From contig NIVC01001637.1 of assembly GCA_002269645.1 (NCBI GenBank), positions 62,001 through 126,000 on the forward strand: a stretch of 64,000 nucleotides of DNA. Reading direction: 5' to 3'. Position numbers and translations under genes: made by a program. Shown here piece by piece: positions 3,001-27,974 of the stretch. The notes beneath the pieces are model-generated. The model was given only the letters and a program-made list of their open reading frames with translations, ran no database searches and was not told where the DNA came from. The stretch comes from Macrostomum lignano. Lineage: Eukaryota. The stretch's first letter is position 1, and every line of letters starts with the position of its first letter.

Positions 3001-3448
3001 AACGAGTCAACGCCCCAGTCGGTGCTGTCCCACCTGTTAGCAGTGTTCCAGCTGCCCAGCAGCACTTTGGAACCGTTTCTGTCCGAGTGCGTCACAGCGG
3101 AGAGCCTGCTCACTCTGCTGCTCTGTCTGCATATCCAGCTCGGTCTGTCCTCGGTAGCCAATCAGCGTAGAGCTCTGCTAGCCAGATGCTGCGATTGGCT
3201 GCGCTCGGTGAAGGTCAGCGTGGACGGTGAGGTTCGGTACCTGGCCCTGCTAGATCGCTGCTTTGATGCACTGGTTATGCACTTGACTCCTGAGGATGAT
3301 CAGTGGCTGAATAGGCAGCTGCACCAGCTGCTGCCCTGTCTGCTCACCCTGTCGGAGGATAAATCTTCGGCTGGGTTTCTGGGAGCTATCGGACTGGGAC
3401 GGCGCTCAGCGATGTCTGCTGAGTGAGTGATGATGGGTCTGTGGATGG

Positions 3449-3484
<36 letters not shown>

Positions 3485-3489
3485 CAGAC

Positions 3490-3553
<64 letters not shown>

Positions 3554-4191: not shown

Positions 4192-4317
4192 GAACTGATT
4201 GAAACTGCTGGTTCTGGAATTTCTTCATTCGTGTGTTTATTATTCAGTGTTTATGACTATAGCTGGGTCGATTGAACTATATGTGGGAATTTAACCTAGG
4301 GAGATCATCTTTATTAG

Positions 4318-5915: not shown

Positions 5916-6757
5916 CTCTAAGCTACGTGAGGTGATCAGTGCTAAAAAAACGCGTCATTCCAAATGTTCTCGTATTTTCGCAACCTCTACTAACAGTAGT
6001 TTCAATGCGTATTTTCAGATTGATTCTCCTGCGTGTAAATAAAATGCCAATAAATACATTATTAGTATTGCATGCGCAGTGTGTATCAATAATGTATTTT
6101 ACTTGACTCCCAGTAATTATTGATTTTACAATCGATTGTACATCATTCATTAATAATAATTCACCTCCTGCTTTCTCTGCGTTGGTCTTTCTTGTAATTA
6201 AACAAACCAAAAACAAAGGAAAATTATATGAAAATTGAAAACTTCATTTTTTGTCACAATTTGATTCTCACTTGGGTTTGCATCTGAGTTTGTTTGATCA
6301 TAAAAAATGTTGCTATTTTCTTAAACAGATTATTTTTGGTACTTTTAACCCTAAATTACGAGCAACCAATTCATTCTAGCATGCGTATTATTTATTAATT
6401 ATTTAATTGTTTAATTGTGTTTCATTTTCAGTTGGAATCTTAACTCGAATTTCTTCATCACGTAGGGTTCAATTTTTCTTTTGTCCTGGCCTGCGTTTTT
6501 TGAGGAACCTTGAAGATTTTATAATATATAATTACGGTAATAAAACTGTTAACAACAGTAATTATGCGTTTGTTTATCCAGATTTTAAAAAAATTGGCTT
6601 CCGCTTAATAAAGTGCATGCTGTACTTGGTGTTGACTTTGGTGTTCGTTTAGTTGTTTTAAATAAACATCTTAGGCCAGACTGAATTTTTCTACATGTCT
6701 ACATGTCTACATGTCTAAATCTACATGTACATGTGTAATTGAGACCAAGAGAATATT

Positions 6758-7400: not shown

Positions 7401-8083
7401 TACAGCCCGACCGAAAATAATCGTTCTTTCAAAAACAGTAAAAAAAGTGTGTCAGTTGTGCCACAAATATGCCCTTTGACAGAGATGTAACTGTCTTTGT
7501 ACTTTTTGGCATACTTGTTGCTACAATTGTACCAATTGTGCCATAGCTATGCCATTTGGCACAGGAATTGTAAATGTCTTTGTGTGCCCTTTTTGGCACA
7601 CCTGGAGCAAATAACGTTTTTATTGCTAACGAAACTGTTTGACACACACCCGGTGCAACTTGCACGGAGGCTGGCAGGCGGTCATTAACAACATGATCTG
7701 TTCAGACGCTCTAAAATGGCACAACCGCGTTTGATTGACGCCATTGCAAAAAAATCGAACTAAAAGCAAATCAAGCAGCATATCTCGCTGTCCGTCTAGA
7801 TCAGCTCGTGGACCCAGCTGTCACAGTTGACGACATGAATCGACATCTCAGCCAATATGAAAGCGGTTGAAAAGGCCTACGTCCGGTGCTCCATCCAGGG
7901 ACAACTAAAACCCTCGGGACGCGAAACGAGCCAATTCATGGCAAAAAATCTGAGGGGCTCGCTTAAAAGTATTGTTCTATGGCTTTTTCAAGTCTTCTCT
8001 GCTATCAGGCAAATTAAGCTGCGGCCAGCAGTGAAGCTAAGCTGAACTATATCAAGAGAAGCATTTTTTATTCACTTGATGAA

Positions 8084-10956
8084 ATGCCAAGAAAGTGCAG
8101 CGTATTTCCGTGCTCGTCAAATTACAACTCTGAAGCCGTTCGAACACGGACATTTGCGTTTCCCAGAGATCCACAGGAGCGAGAGCGATGGAGAAAGGCG
8201 CTGCCAAATATTCTCCAGGTAAGAAACCAGATCATTTGCTGTCATTTCTGCTGCATAATTCCGCTTCAATTCTGCATGCCAGTCTCGTCCAAACAACTTG
8301 AAACCCAAAATTTATTATTTTAGAGAGTGACTGACAATATGGGCGTGTGCGAAAAGCATTGGCCAAGCGATGCTCCAATGGTCAAGAAAAACTCTACCGA
8401 AAGGCCAATTAATCCTCCTTCTGTTTTTAATGGAGTTCCTAGCTCGTGTTTTGTTCAGAACCAAGGTACGTAACTTAAAGATTGCTCAACACTTAGCGTC
8501 TATATCGATTTTGCCGCTCACAATTATCTTACTTTTATTTTTACCCTTATTTTAGACCAGGACCGACAGGCCGAAAAGCGCGGTGTTCTTTCTGACGCGA
8601 GGTGCGGCGACATCGATGAGATGGACGCTTTTCAGCTGCTTGATTTTTTGCCGGCATGGGAAAGTTTTCGAGCTGAGGTGAAAAATTCGGATGTCGTATC
8701 TCGACATGCACTGAACACAGCTATTCTGAACGAAGATGTTTACTTGTTTACGTTAGATAAAGATGGAGACCTGTCTGTTCGAATTTTTGTCTCACCCAAC
8801 TTTCTGATTCGTGCATTCAAACTGCATACACCGATTTCGGTTCGAGACTTGTTGGGATTTCAACCGACACTCAAGCGCTGGTCGCAACTGGATGCTGTTG
8901 TCGTGCGGTGCAAAAATTCCGACGCCAATCCCCAACGTGAAGTCGAAGCGTTTGTTAGTAGAATCAGTGATGATATAGATTCTGACTCTGATTTGGATCC
9001 GTCGCTTCAGTTTTTGATTCGACAACTTAGCCTTACATTAGTAAATCGGAACAATCGCCGCTATGACATTTTACTAGTGCGACAGTCAGCATTGCTCTAC
9101 TTGATCAGTAGTTCGGCTTACTCTTACCTACGGAAGCTATTGCCATTGCCTCATCCCGAACGCTGCAGCTGCAACTAGCAGGTACAGGAGAAGTTGGCAC
9201 AGAAACCGACGCAGCCGATGTGATCCAGTCAGTTTTTGCTAGTCTATCAGGAGCTCAGCGAAACTGCGTAATTATGTTTGACGAAATGTACATACAACCG
9301 TCCGTTCGATATCGATGCCGTCACCTTCTGGGTCGAGCCGTCGACGATCCGGACCAGGTTGCTAGGACAATTTTGGCTATAATGGTAAAGCCATTACTTG
9401 GTGGAAAACCGTTTGTAGTCCGACTATTGCCGACATACATTTTGTCTGCGGAGTTTCTGCGAAAATGCGTCAGCCAATGCATTAAAGCAATTAACAACAA
9501 CGGTGGCCGTGTCGTTGCTCTCGTCAGCGACAATCACCCTACCAACCGCAAGTGTTTTGCTTTATTTAGCGATGGAAGAGAGAAGCCATGGATTGGAACG
9601 GATGCTGCACAGGAGTCGGAATTCTTCATGCTTTTCGATTTCGTTCACATTATCAAATGCATTCGCAACAATTGGCAAATGGAAGCGAATGGAATTCTGA
9701 GAATTCAACCTCCTGGCGCTGACAGACAGATATCCGCTAAATGGTCAGACGTGGTACGCCTGTACCAAATGGAGAAAGACCACGTAGTCAAGCGCACATG
9801 TCTAACTCATGAGGCCTGTTATCCCACAAGCATTCAGAAAACTAAAGTCAGTCTCGCTCTCCAAGTTCTCGATGAAAGGGTTGCCGCTGCACTGAAGTGT
9901 GATGGATACTCAGACACTGCGGAATTTATCAAAACCATAGTGAGATTCTGGAAAATTGTCAATTGTAAAAATCCTGATCTACACGCACGACTACGGGATC
10001 CGGACAGGCGACCAGTCTATTCCGTTCAAGATGAAAGCATACAATTTCTTAGCGCGCTCGCGGATTCGTTTGATTCGACACATTGTGGAAAAGGCCGAGC
10101 TCGCCATCATTCATTGACGCCCGAGACCAAGTCAGCGCTAGTAAACTCACTGCGCGGAGCCTGTGAGATGTGTGAGGTTCTTTTGTCCGACCCACGAATC
10201 AGCTACGTTCTGCTGGCTGACTTTCACAGTGATCCACTTGAGGCTGAGTTTGGCGTGTATCGCCAAATGAGCGGCGGCAACTACTATGTATCTGTGGAGC
10301 AAGTGCTGCTCAGTGCTCGACTCCGACGAATGAAGTTATTCGCATCCCTTGAATTAGCAGACTACAAGCACGATCGGAGCAAATGTTGCAATGAACAGCT
10401 GAATGAAATTGAACTGGCGACCATTGATAATTGTGCTGCTAAATCAGAGGAGCTTTCCATTTCGGAGATGGCTTCGCTCTACTATATCGCAGGTAAGCTG
10501 GATATTAATTAAAATTTAATTCACAACGAGGTTTTACACAATCTCATAAAAACAATTGAAACCGTGCTTTATTGGAAATTGACAGGTTATACAGCGACTA
10601 AAGAAGGCATCAAAGGAACAGATTTGATATCAGAGACGAGCATTCCAGCCAGCGAATTCACTGAAGAGTTATCTTGCGGAAAGCTTTGTCATCCTCCACA
10701 ATGGCTGTTAGACTTATCCTGTCTCTGCTACAGCAGTTTTATTCTGCACTCTCCTACGTGCGCAACTCGCGTGCAGAAGCTGTTTTATGTTATTAAGGAC
10801 TTTTACTTTCCAACTAAGACACAGTTCAGCATGGACAGTGTGTCTCGTCGGCTAGCCAACGTTTTTTTCAAAGGACTAGTAAGACGCTCGTCAAAACTCC
10901 CACCAATACCGACGACATCCCATGATAGAAAGCTTCGGAAGTTAGATGCTCAGTAG
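8084..10956 (+). CDS. P-element (THAP9-like) transposase, 4 exons, about 861 aa if one frameshift is restored
   Basis: Exons 8084-8218, 8324-8465, 8556-10492, 10586-10956. THAP zinc finger CSVFPC...FP...W...CEKH...PSVF. RNase H-like motifs FDEMYI, VSDNHPTN, FDFVH and SDPLEAEFG, plus YYIAGY across the last intron. One missing base at about 9158-9160 (CCCGAACGCTG; GAA-ACG expected) shifts the frame. Confidence 0.9.
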
Positions 10957-11035
10957 GTGAAGTTCCAGCGTTTTCTTTATGTACGAGCTACTGACTGTTT
11001 GTGTCGTCTTGTCCTTGGAGTACCGTATTTGCTTC

Positions 11036-11140
11036 TATCTTCTTGCCGTTGGAGTTTCATCTTCGCTTTCATCCTTTATCTTCTTGCCGTTGGAGTTTCA
11101 TCTTCGCTTTCATCTTTTATCTTCTTGCCGTTGGAGTTTT
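11036..11140. repeat. 41-bp tandem repeat (about 2.6 copies) in the P1 3' region
   Basis: TCTTGCCGTTGGAG recurs at 11041, 11082 and 11123. Confidence 0.85.
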
Positions 11141-11196
11141 TTGTTGATATGGCGGTTACTTTATTGTAAATACATTGTAATTATATCACTGGTTCC

Positions 11197-12583
11197 CACA
11201 GAAGATAGACAGAATGGCCGATCAGCCCTCTCGCAGAAAAATCTGCCGCAAAAAGTATTTGCATATTTAGCTACTTTTGTGGTGAAGGAAGACAGTAGTC
11301 ACTTATACTTACTCGTATGCGGCTCGGAAAGGTTCTGCCATAGACGACTGAGACTGCGAGTAGCAGCAGCCGATGCCATAGAATATACAGTATATTCCGT
11401 GGCAGCGGCTGCTGCTATTGACATTAATAAGGCAGTGATTGGCAGCAACGAAGGCATTAACAGAGACAACTGTAACATTATGACAGCATCAAGAAGGCAA
11501 TGCGCTGCTTATGGCTGCCAGAATTACGCAAACAAATGTCCTGCACAAACGAGATTCCCAGCAAACCGTGAAAGGTATGTTCATGTACATGCGTGACTTG
11601 CCTGCTATTGCCACACAGTCATTCACTGAAACCTAACTACTGTAGGTGTGAAGATTGGGCTCGGCGCATTTTCCGATCAGACCTCTTGGGCAAGAAAAAC
11701 GAAGCGAGGTGGAAGAACGCTGTCGTGTGCAGCCACCATTTTCCCGACAGCATGTACGTGTGTCCTGACCAGAGACATGAGCCTGGGGTCAGACTGATGC
11801 CCACTGTGAGAACTGTCGCTGCGACCTCACTTCAGCCTCCGTGGAAGGCAAGACTTTTATTCACCTGAAAAGCTACGAAGAAGCCAGCCTAGTAGTGCCC
11901 AGTGATGCAGTGGTGGCGGCTGTTGCAGAAATGGAAGCGAGCTTTCAGGAAGCGCCGTCAGATAAATTCCACGAGCCGCGTGTTAGGGCCAGTGTTAGAG
12001 CTGCGTTTCTCAGTTCAGCTCGAAGTCTCATACGAACTCATTCTGATGAGCACAGCGAACGCTGTACTATTGGTTTAGCAACGCTGTACACCAATCTGAG
12101 ACTCCACCATTGGTGCAACAGTCAGCGAATTCTGGCGCAAAAGAGGAAAAGCGGAAGAGGGACTGCACTTGTACCAGTGCAGAGAAAGCTGAGGCGACTG
12201 AACGCTGATTGAGGAATTTAATTGATTGGGGAAAGTGTACAATGTAATCTGAACTGGAGCAGCGAATACAAATTGGAGTAAATTGGTGAATTGTATTGTT
12301 AATAATAATAATTAAAATGTTTCAAATATGTTATTTCTTTCAAATAAATGATTGGTGACAACGTCTACGGTTTTATTCCAATTTGGGCACTGCCAAACCT
12401 GTTATTTTTTAATTCTGAAGCAGTATCTAAGTTTATAGAATCATACGCAGAGTCTACATATATTATATATGCATATCGAATTTTCATAACTACTGCTCCG
12501 CTTCACCACAAAAGTAGTTTGTTTGCATATTAATTTCCAAATATCCCGCGACAGCCGATCGGGCATTCTGTCTATATTCTGTG
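11197..12583 (+). mobile_element. Non-autonomous, internally deleted P element (P2), 1387 bp, nested in P1
   Basis: 30-bp TIRs CACAGAAGATAGACAGAATGGCCGATCAGC versus CACAGAATATAGACAGAATGCCCGATCGGC (3 mismatches). 8-bp TSD CTGGTTCC at 11189-11196 and 12584-12591. Confidence 0.95.
11480..12212 (+). pseudogene. Deleted P transposase: intact spliced THAP domain (11480-11574 + 11646-11868, about 105 aa) fused out of frame to the transposase C-terminal tail
   Basis: MTASRRQCAAYGC...RFP...W...CSHHF...RLMPT is a THAP domain. From about 11800 another frame reads HCENCRCDL...FIHLKSY...LVVPS...LYTNLRLHH...RKLRRL, typical of P transposase C-termini. The catalytic core is absent. Confidence 0.8.
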
Positions 12584-13554
12584 CTGGTTCCTATTCTTTA
12601 AATTAAATACTCGACATTGCCTCGCTTTACTATTTAATCTAACCGTTAATGCCTGATAGCAGAGAAGACTTGAAAAAGCCATAGAACAATACTTTTAAGC
12701 GAGCCCCTCAGATTTTTTGCCATGAATTGGCTCGTTTCGCGTCCCGAGGGTTTTAGTTGTCCCTGGCTCCATCATCGTCAGCAGTCGACGTGAAAAGCGG
12801 TCCGGACGTTTGTCTGTCAAGAAACGTCGTCAAGGAGCGGCTGCCGGTGTCACTGACACTGTGCAGTCGGAGGCGAATATTGCACCTCGCGAGGACTGAG
12901 CGCGGGATGTCTGCTGTTACTTCAAATCTATTAATACCAAACTTGTTTGGCAGATGCCGGAGCCGTCTAGCTTGGCCTTATATCCCCCCCCACGTTTCTA
13001 GTTTTGCTTAATTCTAGCATTGTATATGCAGACATGCCTGGTTTGGTGCCTTGATAGAGATATCACGATGTTGGGGGTGCCAGCTCGTCAGGGCCGCGTG
13101 GTAACTAGCACTCCGTTGTTGAAGGTCCCGAAGGTCGCCTGTATGTCTACAGGTCAGCCTAGAGGGTCGCCATCGTCCATTTCATTCACCGATTATGTCT
13201 AATGACTGAATGCTGCATGTTTGAAAAGGATTAATTCTTCCATTTCTGCAGTTTTGGAAACGCAGCGTCTCTGAGATGCCGATCGGGTGCTTTAGTTGAA
13301 GGTCCCGACGGTCGCCGCCGATGCTCCAGACGGTGATGAAGAGGACCATTATGGTTCCTGGGATGCTGAGAGCCAAAGTCGCTGCGACTGATATGCATAG
13401 TTTGTTGAGCCGACGTGGTTTCATGTTGACATTTTGTGAGCAGAAACATTTTGTCAATTTTGGGGGATATTGACACCGGGCACCACGAGGAGAATCGTTG
13501 AATATGTCGACGACGCCGATATTTTGTGATTCTCAAAGTTGCTTCATCGAATAA

Positions 13555-13650: not shown

Positions 13651-14554
13651 TATTTGAAATACACCCTCATGGTCTTTCTACTGTTACGGACATGCCATTT
13701 TTTTCTCAAATGCACACGGGGACCAGAAGTCAAAGATTCTCAAGCAAACCTCCGTTTTTTTGGAAGCTGGGACACCCGGAAGCGCGTTTGAGTCTCCAGG
13801 GGAGACCGCGGAAACCCGAAAACCCTAAGGTATAAAGCCGGTTGGCATCCAGCTGTCGGATTTCCATCCTCCAAACATTTGTATATTTCTGTTTTGCAAT
13901 TCAGACTTGTACTTTTGAGATAGCTCGCATTATTAGATTATCGTCTATTCGACACCAGCATTTTTAACTTGGATATGAAATTTCTGGCTCGACCCGCCAT
14001 CGAACCTCAATAACTCTTTTTTGTAGAAATTAAAAGCTTTGTAGTATAGGCAAGACTTCAGACTTGAGTTTAGCATACCTGACACTCAACACCGGTCTAC
14101 TTTCGCTATGCTGGATATTTCTAGAATTTATGTTTCCGAAACAGAGCCTGAAAAACTTTGGATGCCATCCGCATCACTTTGACTTAGTGGTAAATATTCA
14201 AAAGCGAAAAGGCAGGCAGAGAGACAGACGCACAATCAGCCACTAATACGAGCCGTACCACGTAAAGCTGCTAATAATGCTCTGAAAAAACCGCTCTGCA
14301 AATAAATGAACACTTTACTGGCCTCCTAACTAAAACTGGTAACTGGCATCAGACTGCTACTTTAAGTAGCAAAGCAGCAGCTACGATAGCAATTATTCTG
14401 TAGCCAAGCCGAACCGCACCCAAACCTCATTTATTTCTATTGGCCTGGGCAGCGCTGCCAATGGCAGGCAATTGTGACACAAATAAGCAAAAACAGTTAA
14501 GTTCCAGCAAAATGCGGCGCTTTCCGCATTCCACAGCACCGATAACAAGCCGAA

Positions 14555-16698
14555 ATGGAAGCTCTTTGGAGAATCCTTACAGCGATTTCAGCCGTTCTGA
14601 AGCAGACCTTCGGCAGGTCCGCAGGCCAAAGCGAGGGCCTTGATGGCACAGAGCAGGAGATCCTGGAAGCCGTTATGTTCGAAAATGAAACAAAAATTTC
14701 ACAATACCTGCAGAAACCTTCTAACGTTGATAGGCTCTTCAGCATCAATGAGATGACATTCTCACCGCTTCACCTTGCGTGTGAAGTGGGAAAAGACAAA
14801 ATTTTCGAAATGTTCATTCGAGCCCACGCTAACGTCAATCTTCAAGGAAACACTGGCTCGTCACCTCTCTTCATTGCATCACTTTTTGGTCACCACCAAG
14901 TTGTGAGCTCACTCATCAAAGCACAAGCTGACGTCAATCTTCAAGAAGTCGATGGCTGCTCACCTCTCTACATTGCATCACAGACTGGTCACCACCAAGT
15001 TGTGAGCTCACTCATCAAAGCACAAGCTGACGTCAATCTTCAACGAAACACTGGCGAGTCACCTCTCTACATTGCATCACTTTTTGGTCACCACCAAGTT
15101 GTGAGATCACTCATCAAAGCACAAGCTGACGTCAATCTTCAAGAAGTCGATGGCTGCTCACCTCTCTACATTGCATCACAGCAAGGTCACCACCAAGTTG
15201 TGAGCTTACTCATCAAAGCACAAGCTGACGTCAATCTTCAACGAAACACTGGTGGGTCACCTCTCCACATTGCATCAAAGAATGGTCACCACCAAGTCGT
15301 GAGCTCACTCATCAAAGCACAAGCTGACGTCAATCTACAACGAAACACTGGCGAGTCACCTCTCTACATTGCATCAAATTTTGGTCACCACCAAGTTGTG
15401 AGCTCACTCATCAAAGCACAAGCTGACGTCAATCTTCAACGAAACACTGGCGAGTCACCTCTCTACATTGCATCACAGACTGGTCACCACCAAGTTGTGA
15501 GCTCACTCATCAAAGCACAAGCTGACGTCAATCTTCAACGAAACACTGGCGAGTCACCTCTCTACATTGCATCAAATTTTGGTCACCACCAAGTTGTGAG
15601 CTCACTCATCAAAGCACAAGCTGACGTCAATCTTCAAGTAAACACTGGCGAGTCACCTCTCTACATTGCATCACAGAATGGTCACCACCAAGTTGTGAGC
15701 TCACTCATCAAAGCACAAGCTGACGTCAATCTTCAACGAAACACTGGCTCGTCACCTCTCTACATTGCATCACAGAATGGTCACCACCAAGTTGTGAGCT
15801 CACTCACAAAAGCACAAGCTGACGTCAATCTTCAACGAAACACTGGCTCGTCACCTCTCTACATTGCATCACAGAATGGTCACCACCAAGTTGTGAGCTC
15901 ACTCATCAAAGCACAAGCTGACGTCAATCTTCAAGTAAACACTGGCGAGTCACCTCTCTACATTGCATCACAGAATGGTCACCACCAAGTTGTGAGCTCA
16001 CTCATCAAGGCACAAGCTGACGTCAATCTTCAACGAGTCGATGGCTGCTCACCTCTCTACATTGCATCACAGCAAGGTCACCACCAAGTTGTGAGCTTAC
16101 TCATCAAAGCACAAGCTGACGTCAATCTACAACGAAACACTGGCGAGTCACCTCTCTACATTGCATCACATTTTGGTCACCACCAAGTTGTGAGCTCACT
16201 CATCAAAGCACAAGCTGACGTCAATCTACAACGAAACACTGGCGAATCACCTCTCTACATTGCATCACAGAATGGTGACCACCAAGTTGTGAGCTCACTC
16301 ACAAAAGCACAAGCTGACGTCAATCTTCAACGAAACACTGGCTCGTCACCTCTCTACATTGCATCACAGAATGGTCACCACCAAGTTGTGAGCTCACTCA
16401 TCAAAGCACAAGCTGACGTCAATCTTCAACGAAACACTGGCGAGTCACCTCTCTACATTGCATCACTTTTTGGTCACCACCAAGTTGTGAGATCACTCAT
16501 CAAAGCACAAGCTGACGTCAATCTTCAAGAAGTCGATGGCTGCTCACCTCTCTATATTGCATCACAGCAAGGTCACCACCAAGTTGTGAGCTTACTCATC
16601 AAAGCACAAGCTGACGCCAATTTTGAGAATATTCGCAGTCAAGAAGTGACTAAAATGTCATCTGCCTTGGAAAAACCGCTAAAGGAGTCAGATTTTGG
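14555..16698 (+). CDS. Ankyrin-repeat exon (19 repeats; 18 near-identical 99-bp units) of an ANK-cGAS-like (Mab-21) receptor gene
   Basis: 33-aa repeats G-x-SPLYIAS-xx-GHHQVVSSLIKAQADVNLQ-xxx. A phase-2 donor GG/GTAGGC at 16699 precedes the ORF stop and matches the phase of the acceptor at 17344. Confidence 0.9.
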
Positions 16699-17344
16699 GT
16701 AGGCTTCTCTTTTACCTTTTGCTTGATTTTTAACAGTAGGAACACCAAGCCAGCTGAGTTAAGATGGTTTTGGCATTGCTGATTTAAGCACACTGGTACG
16801 AAAAATGCTGACTTCTACACTTTGCTGACTAGCCATTTGTCGAGGGGGAGTCCGCTATCTCGCCACTCAATCACGTAACTTTCCGTTTTACTCAAACCGC
16901 TCAGACCAAGACCGCTCCCCAAATAAATTTGAACCAACCATACTACAGACACTGCATGGACATTCAGTCGAAATGGGACATCCAAAAATTTTGTTCCGGA
17001 CACTATCTGAATCCTATAGACACTTTCCCTTGGGTCATGGACACTCAGCCAGGAGGCAATACGCTCGTACGCTCATCCAATGGACCCACCTCCAGCCTGC
17101 CAGACTTTACCTCCATTACTCTGAAACTAAAATCTTAAGTCCTCGTCCCTAAGTCAATCCTTTTCCTCTTACTCGCACAAGTTAGATAATTTCTGCACTG
17201 ATAGTTTTAGCTAACTTACCGCATTTTTGATCAACTGCTTACAATCAATTCATGCACCGTTCGGGACTGCTGCCCATGCTGCACAAATTAGTCAATTAAC
17301 CTTTCTAGAAGCACATGTTTCTTCACAAAAAACTCACATTTTAG

Positions 17345-17688: not shown

Positions 17689-18140
17689 GTGAGTTCTCTC
17701 TTGGGGAGTGAAATGATCTGTTAGTGCTGTTAGTGATTGCTGGAGATTCTGGCAGTGCAGACGTTTGCTTTTTGTGTGCAAAGCATTGGTGCAGAAAATG
17801 GTCTGTATGCGACAGCTGAGCTCAGTAAGCAGATCTGAACAAGAGCCTGACTGTCATCTTTCAGTCTGGATTAATTCCAACGCACATATGCATGCGCATT
17901 TAAATATGTAAATGTATTGAATTTGCTAGGTGTTAAGTAGCTATGCTGTACCCACAAAATAGAAAACTGTATTAACAACATGCATTTAGTCTATATCTTA
18001 TTTAGTAGCTTATAGAACATGGGCAACAAAAATTAATTTTCATCATTATTACTCGTTTCCCAATCAGCCCAAAGCATCACTGCAAAGACTCAAACCTTAA
18101 GTCAAATTTTGCCCAATCGGGAACCGAATCGTTTTTACAG

Positions 18141-19585
18141 CCTCCAATCCTGCCCAGCGGACACCCGGATGCACGCTGAGGCCAGCGCTGGACAGTGTCT
18201 CTGCATGCCGTCTCTGCCACTACCCGCCCATCGCGCCGCTGCTGCCAAACCGCGTCTCCAACATCCCCCATCAGGTGCTGGAGGCACTCCGGAAGGTTCT
18301 CACCTCCGCCTCATCGCCCTGTCACGTGGTGCACGCAGCCTCTCCTGACCGAGGAGGCGAAGAGCTCCGCGTGAGCACCAGCTTCCTGGAGAACCGGATG
18401 CTGCGAAGTCTCACTACCCTGCAAGGTCAACTGTTCGTCACACTCAAATACCTGGTCAAGAAGGTCATCTGTCACAAGAATGGCTTCAATCAGCAAGGCT
18501 TGAAGTCCTACCACGTGAAGACCATCACCTTCCGAATGGTGGATGAGACGCCGGTCGAGCAGTGGAAGAAGGAGAACCTCGTGAGTCTCACGAGACAGTC
18601 GCTGCAGATGCTGCTCGACTGTGTGGAGAAGAGCCGAGAGCAGGACAGACAAACACCTGACACACCTGACCGATCTCGGGGTCGCATCATGAACCATTTC
18701 TTTCTCAGCGATGCGGCCATCTACCTCAAGGGTGCGGACAAGGAGAGAGCGGACCAGCATTTGGACGGCATCATGAGCACACTGAGAACAGTAATCGATC
18801 GGCTGCCCCAACTGCTGCAGCAGTTCATCGGCAGTCTCAGACCTGTGAGCGACTCAGGCACATTCTACTTCCACCCGTTCCAAATTCTGCCGGATCTGAG
18901 GCCGATGTCCCTCACGAAATCTAGTGCTCTCAATTACTATCAGATCTTCGACGTGGTGAGAGAGTGTCTGGTGCGTCTCTCGCGCAGTGACTGCAGCCAG
19001 CGATCTCAGGAGTCGCTCACAGAGCTGATTGCCAGACTGCCAGACTGCGCCCTCTCAGCACGAGAGGCTCTCAGAGCGCTGGCTTGCCTGAAGTTCGGCT
19101 ACCGAGAAACTGCAGAGAGAGTCGTGAGCTCGTGCTCAGGTCACTCGGTGAGCAGAGGCATCGCTTGGTCACGTGAGAAGTCGGCGACTGAAGCGACTGT
19201 GGAGTTCGTGATGCGGCATCTGAGCAGCCGCGACTCGGCGTGGAAGTTTTGCTTTGAGTTCGACCAGCGACCGAAACTCGAGTTCTTGACAGGAGCTCTG
19301 AGGGAGTGCTTTCCCCTCCGGTTGTCAGGCAGTGCTGACCATTTCTACATGAACTTTGATGCTCTGCTGTGGGCTCTGCGGCTCGAGCTGCGGACTGATC
19401 GAGAAGCGCGCGCTCAGGACTGGATCCGGGATGTGGCTGAGAGAGAGGACTCGGATGAGCAGGAGCTGCTGGTTGCCGCTTTGAATTCTTTAAATCCGGA
19501 GCAGTTTCAGGAAATAGTAAAGAAGCTGAAGATGATGAGAGCAGATCTTCACAACTGGCTGAAGGCATATCAGAAGCACATGTAA
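18141..19585 (+). CDS. ANK-cGLR exon 3: remainder of NTase core, Mab-21 C-terminal helical domain and helical tail
   Basis: Phase-1 acceptor TTTTTACAG at 18140. ALDSVSACR probably carries the third acidic residue. LKYLVKK...LKSYHVKTITFRMVDE...W...L...L..LLDC...MNHFFL matches the Mab-21 C-lobe pattern (SYHLKT...W...HYF). The joined ORF is 3933 nt, or 1310 aa. Confidence 0.9.
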
Positions 19586-21180
19586 GCGCAGAAAGAAGCA
19601 GAGGAAAAAGTGGCATTTTTGGGCTGCAAGAAGTGGTTTTAGTGCATATAAACATGTTTTGCTCCAGATGAGCTGCTAATAATATATTATTTTGAAACTT
19701 TAAACTTCATTCCTGACTTTCATTTTTGCTGTTTTCAATTTGCTGTTAAATTCACTGAATTACAACTTGGGGTGCAGAACATCAGCTAGGAGTACAATAT
19801 AAAGCCAGTGAAAATTTGCTAGGCAAAATCTGCAGCAAAACATCTGCTCCCATTTGAGAGGCAACATAATACTTGACTCGCTACTTGCTTAATCCTCAAT
19901 ACTCGTAAATCACTCTTGGAAAAAATTTCAGCAAAAAATTCAAATAAAAAGGTTCTCAGATGTCTTGCACGGTTCCTATGAAACGCACGAGTCTCATTGC
20001 AAATCCGGAAAAAATTTCTGGGCCAAAACTCCAAAACTCCCAGTTTCCCCACAGTCACACGCATAATCCTATACCGTGGGTTGAGCTGGTCTGTCCCTCC
20101 ATTAAGTTTGACTTCTACAGCAAAACCAATGAGTAGCCGCGGCAATCGAATAATGTTTGATTTTCCCGCAGCTCTCCAACGCATGCTAGAAAGACTGCAG
20201 TTCTGTGTTCATGCAGCTGCTGTAGTGCCATTAATCATGAGCTGGGCTGGGAGACCAACTGCTCACTTCCCTCTGCCTGCACACACACAGCTCCCCACAC
20301 ACTCCTGTTGCAGCCCCCCATCCCAGGGGGCCGTAGCCCAGCGGTAGCGCAGCTGCTCTGGTGTGCCAGCAACCCAGGCTCGATTCCAAGTGCAGTCACA
20401 TTAATTTGGGGCTGAATTGGAATCTCGGCTCGGCTCTGCTCGTGCAATTAACGGCCTTGAGAGCCAACCCCCAAGGCGCAGAGAAGTGTACATGCCTAAC
20501 GATAAAATAAAGTTAGGGCCGCTGTACACTCCTGTGTGTGTGTATGCCTGCGTACGTATCCGCGCGCTTGTATGCCTGCTCAGGGGAGTCGGCGGAATGG
20601 GCAGTAATGCCTCTCGCCGGTTGTGGGCCTATGTCGCTTAAAGTGCGCCAGGGTGCACACAACCCCTGCCTCTAATAAAAAAGCCCCCCCCCAACAGACC
20701 CTCCCACAATACGCTGAGCTGGAAGAAAAGCTTGCAAACTTCTGGCCGCCTCTTAATCTTCGACCAGCTGTTTCATTTTTCTCCCCCCCCACAGAAGTAG
20801 TAAGCATTTTTTGGATGCATAGCTCGTTTTTATATGGCGAAATCAGTATGAAGTTCCAAGCACTATTTCAATGGGGGGATACACGCATAGCCTGTTTTTG
20901 CATAGCAAATCCATTAGGAAGTCCCAGCCACTAGACGATGAATTTCTATCCTACCCAGGCGCGTTTACCAAATCTCGTCCCCGTCATGTTCTTTCTAGCC
21001 ACACTCTTTCTTCTACATACGTGGTAGTACAATGCTGCGACCGTTTGTGTCACAGCAAATAAGAAAGGCACATACACACGCATCGCTTTATTGCCACAAT
21101 GTTTTTGTGAATCAGTTCGTTTGTAGACGAAAGCTTTTATATTTTTTGTCTGGATAAAAAACTATCAGGTCAAGCTTGCA

Positions 21181-21774
21181 TTAAAACCGGCGGCGCAGTA
21201 GGGGTTGAAGAACATGCTTGAGAAAAAGGCTCAGAGAGGAAAACGCGCGCGAGAAAGGGCTGCTGCGAGCCCGACCATGGCGTCGCATCACCCAGTGGAT
21301 GAACGAATTCAGATCCTTTCCACTAGCAAGTTTAAAAAACAGATAGAACAGAATCCAGGCTCCACAGTGGGCGGTACGGGGATCCTGCACCGCATAGCGC
21401 GTGTAACGCCAGTTTTTGGATCTCCATAATTTCGGCTCATCCAGTGGGAGATTTCAGGCAGCGGGTGCAAACCTAGCGGATCAAAGTATTCGCCTATCCT
21501 AGCTGGTCTAACAGCGCCAATAGGGCCTGCACAGACCCAGACAGCAACCCAGTGTTTTCCGGGCAAATTGCTAGGGTCGTGTTTACGATGAAAAAATAGT
21601 TACGCGTGTCTTTAAAGTACGGACTCGTGTTTAGATTAGGGATCGTTGGTAGAGAATCGCTTGGGTAAACTTCCATAAAAATGCATCAGGATAAATGCGC
21701 AATAGGTTTAGGCAGACCGAGCGCAAAAACACATTAGTTACGCTTGATAGAATAGTAGTGTTATCTACTTCCAT
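21181..21774 (-). pseudogene. Adenain-like cysteine protease (Polinton PRO), frameshifted
   Basis: Segments VYPSDSLP, FIVNT, PGKHWVAVW, GEYFDPLG and QDPRTAHCGAWILFYL give the His-Asp-Cys triad plus oxyanion Gln, spread over several frames. Confidence 0.88.
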
Positions 21775-23089
21775 ACAGATCCAGGTACCACGTCGCGGAA
21801 CTCCGTCAGATGCAGTTGCTTGTCGAATAGTCCGCCCACGATCACGTTGTAGACTTTGTCCGTGGCTGTCGCGAAGCGTAGTTCCAATCGTACATTGCCC
21901 TCTTTATATAGCTGTGCGCCTGCTCCGACACCCACCTCACTACCCAGTCCGAAGGCGTAGATAGTGTAGCCGGCTTTGTACTCTGTCATCGTGAACACCA
22001 AGTCGCGGTTACGCAGATGCAACCCCAGCTGTTGCAAAAACCACCCGTACTCCAAAACGCAGTCGCCACTATCGCTGTAGTCGGTTTCGAGGGGTCTTGT
22101 TGGCACCGGCTCCCCATTGACAAACACCCCCAAACTGCTCAGGTTGGCGTGTTCGAATCTAAACGGGTTTGTGTCCACACTCCCATTGAACGCTTTGTTG
22201 CTCACAAAGGCCAGAAGTAGAAGTTTCGGAACGCCGCTTGGGAAGAGATTCTCACGCGTGTAGCTAGACGTACCACTCGTAAAAGTAAACGTCCTCATCT
22301 GTAGCTGATTTATTGGATAGATGGCATTGTGCTGTTTCAACCCCGCAGCGTGCGCAGCGAGTACACTCGGCGAGGGGGTTACGTAGCGTACACGGAGCTT
22401 GGCCTTTAGCAACTCTATCTCGTAGCTCTTTAGCGGGTTTTCACCTATCGCACCGACCATGAGGGCGAAGGCAGCGGAAGACGGAATCAATTTTATTCGC
22501 ACAGGAGTTTTAGACAACAGAAACCGCGGCTGGCGGCACATGTCCAAGAACAAGGGCCCCGATAAGCGGTATTCTCGACCCCCTGCTATCAATGCGCGTC
22601 GGCGCCAAAGTTCGCGTCGCCGGCTGAATGCATTTGTCCAGCCGTGTCTTTGTAGAAACCCCAGGGCGTTAGACCACAGGTTTGAGCATCCGATCCATAT
22701 TCTAAAAGCGTCAGTAGCATGGCCTTGTAGGGGTACATGAAGGTTCCGCCTTCGACAACAGTGTCTCCAATAGTTAGTTGTACATCGCGGAACAGGCTCG
22801 CGATAGGTAAATTAATCAGCGCTACGTTGTTCTTCGTCGCATCAGCGGCTACTCCGTCCGTGTCTCGTACACGTATGGCCAGATTTAGAATCGTCTCTTG
22901 CAGATCCAGGTAGAGTGCATCCCCTGCGAAGACGACTTCGAACTCGATTGGGGCACCTTTAGAGAGTCCGTGTTGCGGCTGAATGTGGGTATACTGGCTG
23001 TCCACTACACTGCACTGTACAGCAGCCGCATCAAAAAGGGCCAACTCGCTTTTTAGTACTACACTGTCGGGGCCAAGCAACTGGTTCAT
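21765..23089 (-). pseudogene. Polinton major capsid protein (double jelly-roll), one frameshift near 22590
   Basis: KSELALF...PIEF...YLDLQET...SLFRDVQL...YPYKAML...FYKDTAG, then RIKL...AFNGS..TNPFRF...NGEPVP...YKAGYTIYAF...GNVRLELRFA; 166+275 aa. Confidence 0.9.
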
Positions 23090-23539
23090 TTTCGGTTTTC
23101 CAGGAGACTAAACAGCGATTTAGCAGCAACGGCCTTGCGATTCCGCTTTTTCTTCACCCTTCGCCGTTTCTTCTTGGTTAGACCCGTTCCTCGCTGGGTT
23201 TTTGCTGGTTTTCCACGGGTGCGAGCTTTCTTATCCCGTTTGCTTATAGTCTTCTGGGGGCGTTTTTTCGGCTGCGTATTTTGGGAACAGCTGCGCTCGC
23301 CATCTTGTAACCGCCTCCCGTGTGCTTTCGTTTGCGATTAGCGTTTGTTGTCTCGTTGCTAGTGCCTGATAGGTATTCCAAGCCCCGTGCCGAAAGATCC
23401 TTTCCCGCACTCCGCAAAACCGGGATCAACACTCGATTAGAGAGGTTGGAAAGGAATCCATAGCCTTCGTAGATCGGAATCGCTCGGGCGGAGGATCCTC
23501 CCCCGCTTTGAGTGGGTCCAGAATAGAAACTGGATCCAT
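23086..23539 (-). pseudogene. Basic core protein (adenovirus pVII-like) with QxGxG motifs, frameshifted
   Basis: Reads ...YSGPTQSGGGSS...YEGYGFLSNL..RVLIPVLRSAGKDL...HTGGG...QRGTGLTKKKRRRVKKKR. Its stop overlaps the MCP ATG (ATGA). Confidence 0.6.
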
Positions 23540-23576
23540 CAAGCGTTTAATTTCTATTATGTTCCAATTTCACAGT

Positions 23577-24829
23577 TTACTTATAAATGCGCCGAAAAAG
23601 CCGTCGAGTTCGCTCATCCAACTCGGCTTCTTTTAACCACTGATTCCTAAAGGCCTCAACTCCTTGACATTTCACTAAATACCGCCGCTGACCGTCTGAG
23701 CCTTGTTCGTAAGCGTCTACACGCTCGATGACTGACGGCTCCGTATTTTCTTTTGCTACACGCTGTAGTTCTCCCTCATTGAAGTAACCCTCTAGTGCGC
23801 TATTTCCGTCTTCCGGATTCTCTAGTTTCTACGACGCTGCTCGGCGAGGATTCGTAGCACGGATCCGAAACACAGTGTTGCTCCACACTGTCGAATAGCC
23901 CTTGTCGTGCGATTATTACCCAGTCTCCTACCTTTAGTGTTGATAGAGGCTGCTGCAAGGCATCATTCTCTATAATCTCAGACCCGATGATTCCCTGTAG
24001 ACGCGGATCCACCGCCGTGTTGTAAAGACTCTGACCAAACAGCGCCCGGTGAGGGCTTGAGTTCAAATTTCGTTCCATTTGGGGTAGAATGTCATACCAG
24101 CGTTCCAGGTTTCGAGCCCAAAAATAACGGCTGAGTCGCTCTTTCAGAGTACGGATTAACCTTTCAGCGATCGCAGCCTTGTAATAGCTTTGGCTAACAA
24201 AAAAGCGTACACCCGCCCGTTTTAGTACAGCTTGAGTTTCACGCCCTAGGAACTCCTTTCCCGCGTTGCCCTGAAGATAGAGAGGTCGGAAGCCTTCAAG
24301 AAACAGATTTTCAAGTTCGGCGCCCACCTCTTTATCAGTTTTCGTTCGTAGAGGTCGCAGACGTACTTCGCAAGTGAAACAATCAATCAAAACGAGGATG
24401 TAGCGGTATCCCTTGTTTTTTTGACTTGTATTGAGGGAGATCCGCCAGGTCGATTTGGAATTGAAAACTAGGGATATGTGGTACACCAATTCTGCGGGTT
24501 TTGAATATTCGTTTAGTTTTGCGAAACAGGTTATATTCTTTGGTCTCCCGGGCCCATTCGTCTACGATTTCTGCCGCTCGTTTAGATGCTAGTGACGGAA
24601 ACTGGGTTTTAACATGTCTTAATAGCTGTTGCTTGCTTCCTGCAAAAGCAGTAGGGCGGTCCAAATCGTAAAATTGTCTGTCTAAGAAGTTCTTGACATC
24701 TAGCGAGTTGTTATTTCTAGTCCGTTCTTTTGCGTTTTCGGACAGCTGATGGCTCTCGTGTTTCGCCTTTCGCATGGGAGGTCTCTTTTTCAGTGCCATC
24801 GGTTTTTGTATCGGTGATTCCTCCCACAC
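23577..24829 (-). pseudogene. Retroviral-like (rve) integrase with C-terminal chromo-like domain; frameshifted, catalytic Asp replaced by Asn
   Basis: FYDLDRPTAFAG...FQIDLADL, KGYRYILVLIDCFT, LQGNAGKEF (Asp expected; AAC at 24265-24267), KAAIAERLIRTLK, WYDIL. The tail reads EGYFNEGELQRV...YLVKCQG...NQWLKEAEL. Confidence 0.9.
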
Positions 24830-25019
24830 TGCTGCTCTGTGGCAAGTTATTAGTTGATGCAGAACGCGTCACCGTCATGCAGCACCTAATAATGTTCTGT
24901 ATGGTGATATCGCCCGCGTCGGGAGTGTCCTCGTTATGGTGGAGCGCCCCGCCTAAGCAGCCTTGCAAAAGTCTCACAACCAAATGAAAAACAAAGCGTA
25001 AAATTTCGCGTAGTTCCAT
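24717..25019 (-). CDS. Small hypothetical Polinton ORF (100 aa)
   Basis: ATG-initiated ORF co-oriented between Polinton genes; no recognised motif. Confidence 0.4.
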   Translation of the reverse strand: MELREILRFVFHLVVRLLQGCLGGALHHNEDTPDAGDITIQNIIRCCMTVTRSASTNNLPQSSSVGGITDTKTDGTEKETSHAKGETREPSAVRKRKRTD

Positions 25020-25122
25020 TATCAGAATGTGTTGACACTCAATCCGCGATGCGCCGACCAGTAAGCTTATAGCTGCTACAATATTTAACTACAAACTTAG
25101 CTTGTCAATGTCTCGTAATTTT

Positions 25123-25808
25123 CTAGGAAATCCATTTCTTCGTCCCGCGTTTCTTTGTCGTCGGTAAAGGTGGGTGGAAACTCTTTCTCTGCTGCAGCTG
25201 ACAATTCCGTTCAAAATTGTTTTCCGACAAGCTGAGGATCCGCTTTTCGTTGACGCAGAAAACTCAAAAAGTTTTCCAGCCCACCTGGCAGGTGCCCCTC
25301 ATGCCTCTTCGGGGGTTTGTCGCGAACAACGTAGTCCATCAAATCGCGCATCTCCGTTTCGGTTAGTTTGGTCCCGTTTGCCGCCAGATTTGCTTTCTCA
25401 TTTTCGATGAAAGTTTTAAGACGTCGCCAGCGAGCCTGAAGTGCTTTTGGAATTCGTATTGTTTCGTTCTCTTCCTCCGCACTATTGACTAACGGCTCGC
25501 TCTTCACTCGCTTGAGGGTTATCATCTGGCTTCAAAAACTTCTCGCGTGTTTGTAGAAGCTAGCTTTCCATTCTGTTTCGTGCCAGACGAGCAGTCGAAT
25601 TTGGGCTAGATTGATCCGTAGCAATAATCTCGTCTAACCCATCGATTTTCTGTTTCATCCGCACGAGTTCTTGTCCCATCGTGTCACTTGGCATCTCCAA
25701 AACCTTTGCTCGTTCGTCAGCGCACTTGTTTTGCGCGACCAGCTGCGAATATTGTGAGATGGGAATAACAACCATCTTTTGCAGTGCCTCGGGTGAGCGA
25801 GTTCCCAT
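25123..25808 (-). pseudogene. Polinton protein of unknown function, split by frameshifts
   Basis: KMVVIPISQY...RIPKALQARW...PGGLENFLSFL...PQLVG(N)...KKW resembles the uncharacterised ORF usually next to pX in Polintons; pieces 25560-25808 and 25211-25525 plus tail. Confidence 0.5.
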
Positions 25809-25812
25809 GCTT

Positions 25813-26265
25813 TCAGTTTCGTTTGTTCTGTATGCTGCGCACGAGACTAGCAGTACCCGCAGCTGTACCTGCAATGCCGGAGGTGATTCCAAGAGCCGTG
25901 GTGATGGATGGTAATGCTGCCGTTACTGCGGCCACAATCGGCGCGAGGAACGGCAGAAAACCTCCGTGTTGTACAATGATTCTTTTTTTCTCAGTCAGAG
26001 AATGACCACCCGAAACGAGCTTCTGAATAGGCCGACAATGTTTTTCTAATCTTTTCCGGTCCGCGTGGCGGAGTGGCACTCGCTGCCGCACGATATTGAT
26101 CAGGAACTCGACTATACAACGCACTTCCGCTAGACTGAGAGTCTTAAGGAAATCTCGTCTGGTTTTTCTATCACGCAATCGAGCAACAATGTGCAGAATT
26201 TCCGCGCTGTTTGTGATCGAAGATGCACTCTTTCTCGCTTTATGCGTTAATCGTCGTGCGGCCAT
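25813..26265 (-). CDS. Polinton pX-like (adenovirus protein X/mu-like) protein
   Basis: Basic N-terminal half, then QHGGFLPFLAPIVAAVTAALPSITTALG, similar to adenovirus pX GGFLPALIPIIAAAIGAIPGIA. Confidence 0.7.
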   Translation of the reverse strand: MAARRLTHKARKSASSITNSAEILHIVARLRDRKTRRDFLKTLSLAEVRCIVEFLINIVRQRVPLRHADRKRLEKHCRPIQKLVSGGHSLTEKKRIIVQHGGFLPFLAPIVAAVTAALPSITTALGITSGIAGTAAGTASLVRSIQNKRN

Positions 26266-26316
26266 ATCCTACTCTCCTCACTCTATATTTAATGATGTGC
26301 TTGTTTGCTTATAAAT

Positions 26317-27187
26317 CTAGTCGGTTTTTGGGCGGAAATGCAGCACCACTACGCAATGTGCATCCGGCTGGAAAGTGAGAGGATTTCCCTGTTCGTACCC
26401 TAACCGAATGGTGATTTCGTCGATGTTTTGTCGATTCGTTGGCAAATAGTAGGGATTTGGGATCATACCGTCTTGGGGCTGAAGTTGGCCCCCTGTTTGA
26501 GGGTGCAACGGCATAATCCGCAGAAGGGGCACAAGGAGACTGCCAACCGCTTGGTATTCAATTATATCAGTGTAGCAGTGCATGTAGACAGTCTTTCCCC
26601 GAACGCTTTTTTCGCTGGGTGATGTTGGCGCTATGGCTCTAATCATCCAGGTTCTTCTGCCAATACTTATCTAGCGCTCGGTCCCCCTCGCTCTTCCCAG
26701 GCGCCTGTCCCATTATTACTTCCGTACTACCAATAAGAGCTACAGCTTCGCTTGGTCTCAGACGGAAATCGAAATCAAGGTCGGCTATGTATTCAGTTGA
26801 GCTTTTCGCTGTCTCGTAATAGCTGCTATAGCTTCCTTCCTCACCAATGAGTGGACTCCGAGTAAGAGATTCAATGCTTAGGAAATCACTATCCTTCCCG
26901 CGCATTCTTTTCCACTGATCGAAGCCATAGACACGCATGAAATGTGAAGGTAAACGGATCGCTAATTGACTCGCGCCACAGTTTCGGACATACCACAGGT
27001 ACTGGCGCTCTTCCGGGCGACAAAGCAAATAAGCTTCCAGGTCGCCTCCCTGCCAAATTCTTGTCAAAGCAGCCAAAGCATTTAAAAGCAGGAAGACTGT
27101 TGCCACGAGTCTAGCAAGAAAGCGAATACCTAGAAAGGGTGAGATTTGGAAATTAAGGGACATGCAGGACACGCGCTGGGGCAACAC
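26317..27187 (-). pseudogene. Penton / minor capsid protein, frameshift near 26645, apparently 5'-truncated
   Basis: C-terminal motif CYTDIIEYQAVG...VPLLRI...PNPYYLP...IDEITIRL...GNPLTF...VVLHFR is typical of the Polinton penton. The usual N-terminal TLPSN motif was not found. Confidence 0.8.
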
Positions 27188-27974
27188 GGTCTGAATCGAC
27201 TAGTGGTTGGTATTGGGGCTTTAGCGTGGAGGCAAACATAGCTGATGCAGGCTGGGAGTGACTACTCCCTATACCAGATTGCTTCTGAAGTTGCGCATGA
27301 GAGTGGCCGCGAGCCTAGCAAGAAAATGGAGGGGACGAGATTTGGTAACCGTGCCTGGGCAGGAAAGAAATTCATCGTCTAGTGGCTGGGACTTCCTAGT
27401 GGTATCGCCATGCCAAAAAACAAGCTATGCGTGTATCCCCATTGAACTAGTGCTTGGAACTTCATATTGATTTCGCGCTGTAAAAACGAGCTATGCATCC
27501 AAAAAATACTTACTACTCACAGAGCTTCCTTCAACTGTCTCAGAGAGCTGTGGCGGTGATCGCAGGATAAGTCGCAGTACGAAAGCTTGGGATTGGAGTG
27601 GGAGCAGGGAGGCGTGGAAGGAAAAAGCAGGAGAGTCGAAGTTTCTACAGCTGTCTGTCTTATGAATCCTGAAATTTACTGTGTCTACGTATTTCTAGGA
27701 GTATATATCATTTCAAATTGTTATACTGCATCTAATGAATTTTATTATAATCCTGCGTACTCGTAGCTACTGTCGCATTAATAACTCACTAAATTTGTTT
27801 TGCGTTTTATCATACTAATACATGCTTCATCAAGTCATTGAAAATTCGTGTAGAAATATAAGAGAGCAAAGAAAGAAAGTAAGAGAGAAGAAGAGATTTT
27901 TACAGCTTTCTGTGTTTTTCATCTGATTCAGCCAAACCAGGGGTACATGCGGGTCGTGAAGCCTCTCTATCCTG

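What the first reader, a model, noticed from the sequence alone, without database searches (positions are those of the whole stretch)
20796..27517. 6.7-kb mini-Polinton: virion and integration genes with both termini, but no DNA polymerase or packaging ATPase
Seen: AGTAGT termini, TIRs and an exact 6-bp TSD enclose penton, pX-like, an unknown ORF, a small ORF, integrase, pVII-like, MCP and protease genes, tightly packed on one strand. Only about 130 bp separate the penton fragment from the right TIR, leaving no room for pPolB or ATPase. Known: canonical Polintons are about 15-20 kb and carry pPolB, integrase and usually ATPase. Inference: either a post-insertion deletion, or a helper-dependent satellite/defective family that keeps the capsid module and borrows replication and packaging in trans.
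Basis: partly seen in the sequence, partly recalled or inferred. Interest (0 to 1): 0.72.

Follow-up and report, generated by a model that had tools for sequence, protein, structure and literature searches.

The report
Broken, internally deleted Polinton copy
This is a single old insertion of an 18-kb virus-like jumping element that has lost about 11 kb from its middle, likely after it landed, and whose remaining main genes are broken, so it is an ordinary genomic fossil rather than a spreading helper-dependent satellite.

Summary
The anatomy is real: 6,722 bp, AGTAGT ends, 203-nt TIRs, CACAGA duplication, no polymerase or ATPase. The satellite reading is not supported. The same genome holds ~18-kb relatives, 95% identical over the first 6,279 bp, that carry ATPase, PLA2, dUTPase, pPolB, a nucleoside kinase and a TBP-like gene in the missing ~11 kb. 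The deletion cuts off the first ~83 codons of the penton gene, so the capsid module is not intact. The junction occurs twice in the assembly, but both copies share target duplication and flanks: one insertion on two haplotypes. MCP, integrase, penton and core genes are frameshifted or stopped, mostly differently in the two copies, with private changes not distinguishable from neutral. Independent runs bridge the junction, at single-locus depth in one: no misassembly. No polymerase-only partner shares its ends, unlike split Polintons the scan noted on other DNA of this genome. Side hint: the sister allele may be transcribed, with an A>G cluster in its TIR. Verdict: ordinary deleted Maverick fossil.

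The parts
20790..20795 (.). left target-site duplication CACAGA
   Evidence: same in sister copy G000:C1203
20796..20998 (+). left TIR, starts AGTAGT; 9 A>G differences in 20920-20972 in one run's contig
21187..21740 (-). cysteine protease gene (adenain/S273R type), three 1-bp deletions (could be assembly errors)
   Evidence: tblastn with relative's frame; relative's frame hits ASFV S273R at E=0.018; indels
21765..23089 (-). double jelly-roll major capsid protein gene, frameshifted by a 7-bp deletion near 22601
   Evidence: relative's frame folds at pLDDT 89.9 and matches Sputnik/PBCV-1/mavirus MCP, E 7.6e-16
23577..24799 (-). rve integrase with C-terminal chromodomain in relatives; +1 near 24416, -17 near 23902, and a stop at 23829-23831 shared by both copies
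24717..25019 (-). small ORF of unknown function, open
   Evidence: (no Pfam hit)
25089..25808 (-). conserved unknown ORF, frameshifted (indels near 25298 and 25495)
   Evidence: no Pfam hit
25813..26265 (-). pX-like gene, open
   Evidence: Pfam Adeno_PX E=1.4e-4, 22.1 bits, below the curated cut-off of 25
26317..27074 (-). 5'-truncated penton (minor capsid) gene: ~253 of 336 codons kept, 5-bp deletion near 26650
   Evidence: penton label rests on position, an atlas lead (Sputnik V18/19 cluster, 0.93, family on 26% of members) and recalled motifs; no homolog found
27074..27080 (.). deletion junction: ~11 kb (ATPase, PLA2, dUTPase, pPolB, dNK, TBP-like, others) missing; 5 intervening bases repeat 5 bases just upstream
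   Evidence: bridged by contigs of runs X4, X1, X13
27080..27314 (.). family right-end subterminal DNA, with a further ~150-bp deletion near 27300; closest (94.6%) to solo right ends on C578/C1673
27315..27517 (-). right TIR, ends ACTACT
27518..27523 (.). right target-site duplication CACAGA
   Evidence: boundary spanned by contigs of X3 and X4

Best explanation
This is one insertion of an ~18-kb Maverick/Polinton family that lacks ~11 kb of its middle, likely lost through a host DNA-break repair after integration, and it is now decaying. Shown: TSD, TIRs, the deletion and its content, one insertion site, broken genes. Inferred: the parent, a slightly divergent lineage of the family with its own TIR tips, integrated with its rve integrase making the 6-bp duplication; one repair event joined the penton gene to right-end DNA; an integrase stop and a core-gene frameshift arose; the locus then split into two haplotypes that each gathered further lesions. 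It cannot make a capsid or copy itself, and nothing shows it was ever moved again.
For: Junction pattern: 2 matches in 764 Mb, control 0; both have the same TSD and flanks and the sister contig C1203 is collinear with the window from about base 1 to 63,500. Longer relatives are 94.6-95.1% identical over element bases 1-6279 and continue at the exact junction into the penton 5' end and ATPase (5 of 5 readable long copies show the same undeleted continuation). C209:394-18218 has its own matching TSD TATGTT. The missing part encodes A32-like ATPase (E 0.0025, below cut-off), PLA2 (3.7e-9), dUTPase (1.1e-33), pPolB PF03175 (1.3e-13) with EndoVII, dNK (4.1e-21), TBP-like (3.4e-4, below cut-off). 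Lesions: window MCP -7, integrase -17/+1, penton -5; sister copy MCP -8/-7 and two stops, integrase -86, penton +4; shared integrase stop and core -7. Private substitutions pN/pS 0.66 and 0.72, p=0.35 and 0.60 against neutral, versus 0.19 (p=0.001) on the long-copy branch. Another copy (C865) is cut at a different place with an inverted duplication, and two solo right ends exist. 96% of vertebrate Maverick loci are degraded (PMC8097293, passages).
Against: The timing is not shown: both haplotypes carry the deletion, no same-site full-length allele was found, and the test of whether the penton remnant was still under selection on the stem had too little data once polarised (92 codons; 0 synonymous, 2 nonsynonymous on the stem), although unpolarised it looked constrained (12/8). 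The stem as a whole shows partial purifying selection (pN/pS 0.45, p=0.0035; MCP 13 syn/8 nonsyn), and both TIR tips share a variant found nowhere else in the assembly (4 of 4 matches are these two copies): the lineage replicated on its own before integrating, which fits a full-length parent but also a short one. Window-specific lesions were not seen separately in short-read contigs (family alleles dominate).
Confidence: 0.8

Rival explanations
1. The deletion arose in a replicating or packaged genome (a defective-interfering form keeping both ends), which a helper copied and which then integrated once; it decayed afterwards.
For: Both ends and a clean TSD are kept; at the haplotype split MCP and protease had no shared frameshift; TIR tips are lineage-specific on both ends; the right end is of a different subtype (94.6% to C578/C1673, 84% to the long copies), showing recombination in the lineage.
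Against: One site only. Mismatched inner TIRs also occur in the long, TSD-bounded C209 copy (14 of 88 versus 13 of 90 here), so the mosaic ends are no sign of a special short form. One contig in run X3 matches the short copy's right-end type (1 difference in 176 bases, 27098-27273) and runs on for 268 unlike bases where the junction would be, hinting that this end type also exists undeleted; its sequence was not seen.
Confidence: 0.13
2. A mobilised helper-dependent satellite family that keeps the capsid module and borrows polymerase and ATPase in trans.
For: Helpers 95% identical with related TIRs exist in the same genome; the assembly may miss copies.
Against: No second insertion site (9 left ends at 91% or more, all accounted for); the capsid module is not kept whole, because the penton lacks its start and first ~83 codons; MCP and integrase are broken in both copies; junction depth in X4 (49) is like the single-locus boundary and flank (62, 36), not the family interior (340-395) (contig depth is a rough measure).
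Confidence: 0.03
3. The capsid-integrase half of a bipartite Polinton, as earlier scan notes propose for other elements of this genome.
For: Earlier notes e1-8580994 and e1-8581312 describe split Polintons on other DNA (unchecked).
Against: No element other than the two copies has these TIR tips; the family's polymerase DNA at 94% or more occurs on 6 contigs, 5 of which also carry the left module and the sixth is cut by its contig start; ATPase DNA occurs only contiguous with penton; the break lies inside a gene.
Confidence: 0.02
4. Misassembly collapsing the middle of a full-length element.
For: The assembly has errors in this family: many 1-bp indels in C209, and the C1680 copy has non-matching flanks, its right TSD pairing with C869's left end.
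Against: Two contigs 1.64% apart share the junction; contigs from three studies bridge it: X4 26950-27127 with 0 differences to the window, X1 4,322 bp with 7 differences and X13 315 bp with 0 differences to the sister copy.
Confidence: 0.01

Closest known systems
Animal Polintons/Mavericks, Alpha-class adintoviruses (OTU-pfam03175 PolB, PLA2-bearing virion module; PMC8502044, passages)
   Same: AGTAGT ends, TIRs, 6-bp TSD, rve integrase, cysteine protease, DJR MCP, pX-like gene; the long relatives have PF03175 PolB, ATPase and a PLA2 gene.
   Different: This copy has lost pPolB, ATPase and the penton start; in the family PLA2 and pX-like are separate frames rather than one PLA2X gene; the family adds dUTPase, dNK and a TBP-like gene.
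Degraded Maverick fossils of vertebrates (PMC8097293, passages) and partial Polinton remnants of C. elegans (10.1101/2024.01.15.575659, passages)
   Same: Single-site copies with lost genes, stops and frameshifts; the C. elegans paper leaves open the same question of partial insertion versus later deletion.
   Different: Here both TIRs and the TSD survive and the break is resolved to the base; the kept part is the capsid/integrase end, not the pPolB end.
Internally deleted non-autonomous DNA transposon families (e.g. hAT, Helitron in Anolis; PMC3014272, passages) and defective-interfering viral genomes (recalled)
   Same: Both ends kept, middle lost, potential helper in the same genome.
   Different: No amplification: one insertion site.

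Membership tests
Polinton/Maverick (intact element) | TIRs with (AGT)2 ends and 6-bp TSD | tested here: met
Polinton/Maverick (intact element) | rve integrase gene | tested here: met
   PF00665 E 9.1e-6 in window piece, 9e-9 in relative; broken in this copy
Polinton/Maverick (intact element) | protein-primed PolB | tested here: not met
   absent from window; present in 95%-identical relatives
Polinton/Maverick (intact element) | packaging ATPase | tested here: not met
   absent; relatives have an A32-like frame directly after the penton start
Polinton/Maverick (intact element) | double jelly-roll MCP | tested here: met
   relative's frame, 86-97% identical to the window pieces, folds as DJR; frameshifted here
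Polinton/Maverick (intact element) | minor capsid protein (penton) | tested here: inconclusive
   atlas lead only, no homolog; 5'-truncated here
Polinton/Maverick (intact element) | cysteine protease | tested here: met
   weak hit to ASFV S273R, E 0.018, with aligned His and Cys motifs
Non-autonomous mobilised family | same internal junction at several sites with different TSDs | tested here: not met
   2 of 2 matches share TSD and flanks
Helper-dependent satellite keeping a capsid module | intact, selected capsid genes | tested here: not met
   penton 5' end deleted; MCP broken in both copies; private pN/pS near neutral
Helper-dependent satellite keeping a capsid module | replication in trans as free DNA | not testable with these tools
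   only assembled contigs of runs were available
Bipartite Polinton segment | complementary segment with the same ends | tested here: not met

The most novel reading that the evidence does not exclude
A defective-interfering Polinton genome, shortened while replicating and carried by a helper, was caught by a single germline integration; one allele is now read through by the host against the direction of the viral genes, its two TIRs pair and are A-to-I edited, and it acts as a standing antisense/dsRNA source against its own 18-kb family.
Probability: 0.07. Interest if true: 0.6.

Novelty: new member of a known kind. Interest (0 to 1): 0.15.

Why it matters
As found, little: it adds one cleanly resolved deletion fossil to the many known degraded Mavericks. 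It would matter if the short form pre-dated integration, since that would be direct evidence for defective genomes replicating in trans in an animal Polinton, or if the transcribed allele silences the family. The parent family's TBP-like, kinase and dUTPase cargo may deserve a separate look.

Tried and rejected
Single-sequence fold of the relative's MCP was uninformative (pLDDT 33.6); repeated with a 58-row alignment. Homolog search for the penton: 0 of 2,499 candidates passed. Atlas searches for penton and core gave leads only. No RNA holder is listed on record; run types are guesses. Parts without contig cover are not used as evidence. Search for an empty-site allele with the left flank was swamped by a high-copy repeat (3,135 candidates, 40 scored; only the two known copies matched the unique part). 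CpG-biased decay: 9 of 98 private substitutions are CpG transitions while CpG bases are 848 of 6,329, no excess. Flank divergence between haplotypes (2.4, 3.8, 3.4% in three stretches) is higher than in the element (1.64%); unexplained, not used for dating. Paper searches for non-autonomous or helper-dependent Polintons listed no description of a capsid-keeping mini-Polinton; the library lacks the 2006 founding paper, which from recall names non-autonomous Polintons. No supplements were read. Earlier scan notes held nothing on this sequence.
Full report
Observation. The element spans 20796-27517 (6,722 bp), begins AGTAGT, ends ACTACT and is flanked by CACAGA on both sides; the TIRs align at 88.3% over 205 columns. 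All genes are on the minus strand. The window is G000:C1637:62001-126000 of a 764-Mb assembly; earlier scan notes call the host a flatworm, which I did not test. Searching the window with 16 unchanged reading frames of longer relatives gave hits only for protease, MCP, core, integrase, pX-like and penton, none for pPolB or ATPase.

Longer relatives. The right 618 bp matched end to end at one other place, C1203, and in pieces elsewhere; the left 1 kb matched 9 loci at 91% or more. Fetched stretches show elements of 18.3 kb (C1680) and 17.8 kb (C209, with matching TSD TATGTT) that are 94.6-95.1% identical to element bases 1-6279. Where the short copy stops, five readable long copies all continue into the 5' part of the penton frame and then an ATPase. 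The missing part encodes an A32-like ATPase (E 0.0025, below cut-off), a PLA2-like domain (3.7e-9), dUTPase (1.1e-33), pPolB of the PF03175 type with an EndoVII domain (1.3e-13, 9.5e-8), a deoxynucleoside kinase (4.1e-21) and a TBP-like frame (3.4e-4, below cut-off). By my arithmetic the loss is about 10.9-11.4 kb, plus about 150 bp near 27300. The break removes the start and about 83 of 336 penton codons. The relative's MCP folds confidently (pLDDT 89.9, 58 rows) and matches virophage and PBCV-1 double jelly-roll capsids (best E 7.6e-16); its protease hits ASFV S273R weakly (E 0.018). The penton label rests on position, an atlas lead and recalled motifs; 'pVII-like' was not verified.

One insertion, not a family. 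A 33-base junction pattern with up to 2 mismatches has 2 matches in the genome and none in the control. The second, on C1203, has the same TSD and flanks, and stretches of that contig are collinear with the window from about base 1 to 63,500 (8 stretches given, output cut in the middle). Other family insertion sites also appear on two or three contigs each, so the assembly holds redundant haplotypes or homeologs. The terminal 28-base variant is found 4 times, at the ends of these two copies only. Family polymerase DNA at 94% or more lies on 6 contigs, five with the left module and one cut by its contig start; ATPase DNA is always contiguous with penton. So there is no second site and no polymerase-only partner. 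I ran this last test because earlier notes propose split Polintons on other DNA of this genome; I did not check those notes.

The genes are dead. Against the longer copy, the window has a 7-bp deletion in MCP, a 17-bp deletion and a 1-bp insertion in integrase, a 5-bp deletion in penton and three 1-bp deletions in protease; the sister copy has other lesions (MCP -8, -7 and two stops; integrase -86; penton +4). Both share an integrase stop at 23829-23831 that cuts off the chromodomain and a 7-bp deletion near the core gene's start. Single-base indels may be assembly errors, which are frequent in C209. The two short copies differ by 1.64% and each by 3.8% from the long copy. With an outgroup over 1,069 codons, private changes have pN/pS 0.66 and 0.72 (p 0.35, 0.60 against neutral), the long-copy branch 0.19 (p 0.001) and the stem of the short copies 0.45 (p 0.0035), a mix of earlier selection and later decay (codons with gaps or complex patterns were dropped). 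Whether the penton remnant was still selected on the stem is unresolved: 12 synonymous to 8 nonsynonymous unpolarised over 249 codons, but 0 to 2 on the stem over the 92 codons an outgroup covered.

Not an artefact. Contigs of three studies bridge the junction: X4 (178 bp, 0 differences to the window, depth 49 against 62 and 36 at the boundary and flank and 340-395 in the family interior), X1 (4,322 bp, 7 differences to the sister copy) and X13 (315 bp, 0 differences to the sister copy) (7 of 24 listed runs were laid). The best DNA holders may include the assembly's own sample. X3 and X4 span the right boundary.

Mechanism. Shown: integration with a 6-bp TSD, a single internal deletion, later decay on two haplotypes. 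Inferred: the parent was a divergent lineage with its own TIR tips and a right end of the C578/C1673 subtype; inner-TIR mismatch is also seen in C209 (14 of 88 against 13 of 90), so it does not mark the short form. The five bases at the junction repeat five bases just upstream, as templated end-joining would leave (recalled), though they may be parental. Deletion after insertion is the simplest reading; deletion just before it cannot be excluded. One X3 contig carries the short copy's right-end type without, it seems, the junction.

A side hint. X1 and X13 are covered from integrase to junction by contigs of the sister short copy, unlike the genomic-looking runs, and X1 has 9 A>G differences in the left TIR with a neighbour pattern like ADAR's (recalled preference). 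A plus-strand host gene with a Mab-21 domain ends 1.2 kb upstream. Read-through with pairing of the two TIRs would explain this, but X1 is labelled 'DNA?', X13 'RNA?' by guess, contigs give no strand, no matched DNA was available, and no such sign was seen for the window allele.

Comparison. Polintons are typically 15-25 kb with pPolB, integrase, protease, ATPase and capsid genes (PMC6431247, passages); 96% of vertebrate loci are degraded (PMC8097293, passages); partial Polintons are described in C. elegans with the same open question on timing (10.1101/2024.01.15.575659, passages). The family fits Alpha-class adintoviruses by PF03175 PolB and PLA2 (PMC8502044, passages). PMC3014272 (passages) notes no non-autonomous Polintons in the anole. 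PMC11161782 and 10.1101/2023.08.22.554363 were searched by word only and added nothing. Searches listed no capsid-keeping mini-Polinton family, but this element does not qualify as one. Supplements were not read.

Verdict. Observation largely right, satellite reading not supported: a deleted, decaying single copy of an ordinary-sized Maverick family. Interest 0.15.

Noticed in passing
L013:5032-5628 (G000:C1680), also C209, C2285, C3805, C4060: The long family members encode a 198-aa frame with weak, consistent similarity to TATA-binding protein (Pfam TBP E 3.4e-4, below cut-off; 13 of 13 PDB hits are TBP, best E 0.098), next to a deoxynucleoside kinase. The phrase 'TATA-binding protein' had 0 occurrences in the 15 Polinton papers listed.
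   Followed up: partly
window 20920-20972 (L011:1855-1907): Run X1 shows 9 A>G differences in the left TIR (9 of 17 A in 20920-20998; by 5' neighbour A 4/4, T 3/5, C 1/5, G 1/3), absent from X2-X4 and, but for one site in one copy, from 5 genomic copies. Looks like A-to-I editing of a plus-strand RNA; one contig, run labelled 'DNA?', no matched DNA.
   Followed up: partly
L011:4000-8325 (sister copy on C1203): In X1 and X13 (two studies) the integrase-to-junction region is covered by contigs matching the sister short copy (0-7 differences), with family-type contigs mainly over protease-MCP, whereas X2-X4 are dominated by family alleles throughout. A hint that this allele is transcribed.
   Followed up: partly
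window 14546-16702 and 18101-19585 (+): A long ankyrin-repeat frame and a Mab-21 C-terminal-domain frame (PF20266 E 1.4e-5) end 1.2 kb upstream of the element; a possible source of read-through.
   Followed up: partly
window 7895-12766: P-element-like transposase (PF21787, PF21788, PF12017) in a ~4.9-kb stretch absent from the sister contig.
   Followed up: partly
G000:C1680:47041-65342 and C869:415536: C1680's two ends have different flanking hexamers and its right one matches C869's left one: assembly chimera or recombination between copies.
   Followed up: no
L040:817-2384 (G000:C64): A ~65-bp tandem array made from a piece of a related TIR, about 22 overlapping matches.
   Followed up: no
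L017:6470-7158 (G000:C865); L023, L024 (C2285, C3805): Other family copies are cut or rearranged in their own ways (inverted duplication, inversions, a second diverged Polinton adjacent).
   Followed up: no
window 20325-20682: High-copy ~360-bp interspersed repeat 113 bp left of the element (3,135 candidates, 97-98% identity).
   Followed up: no
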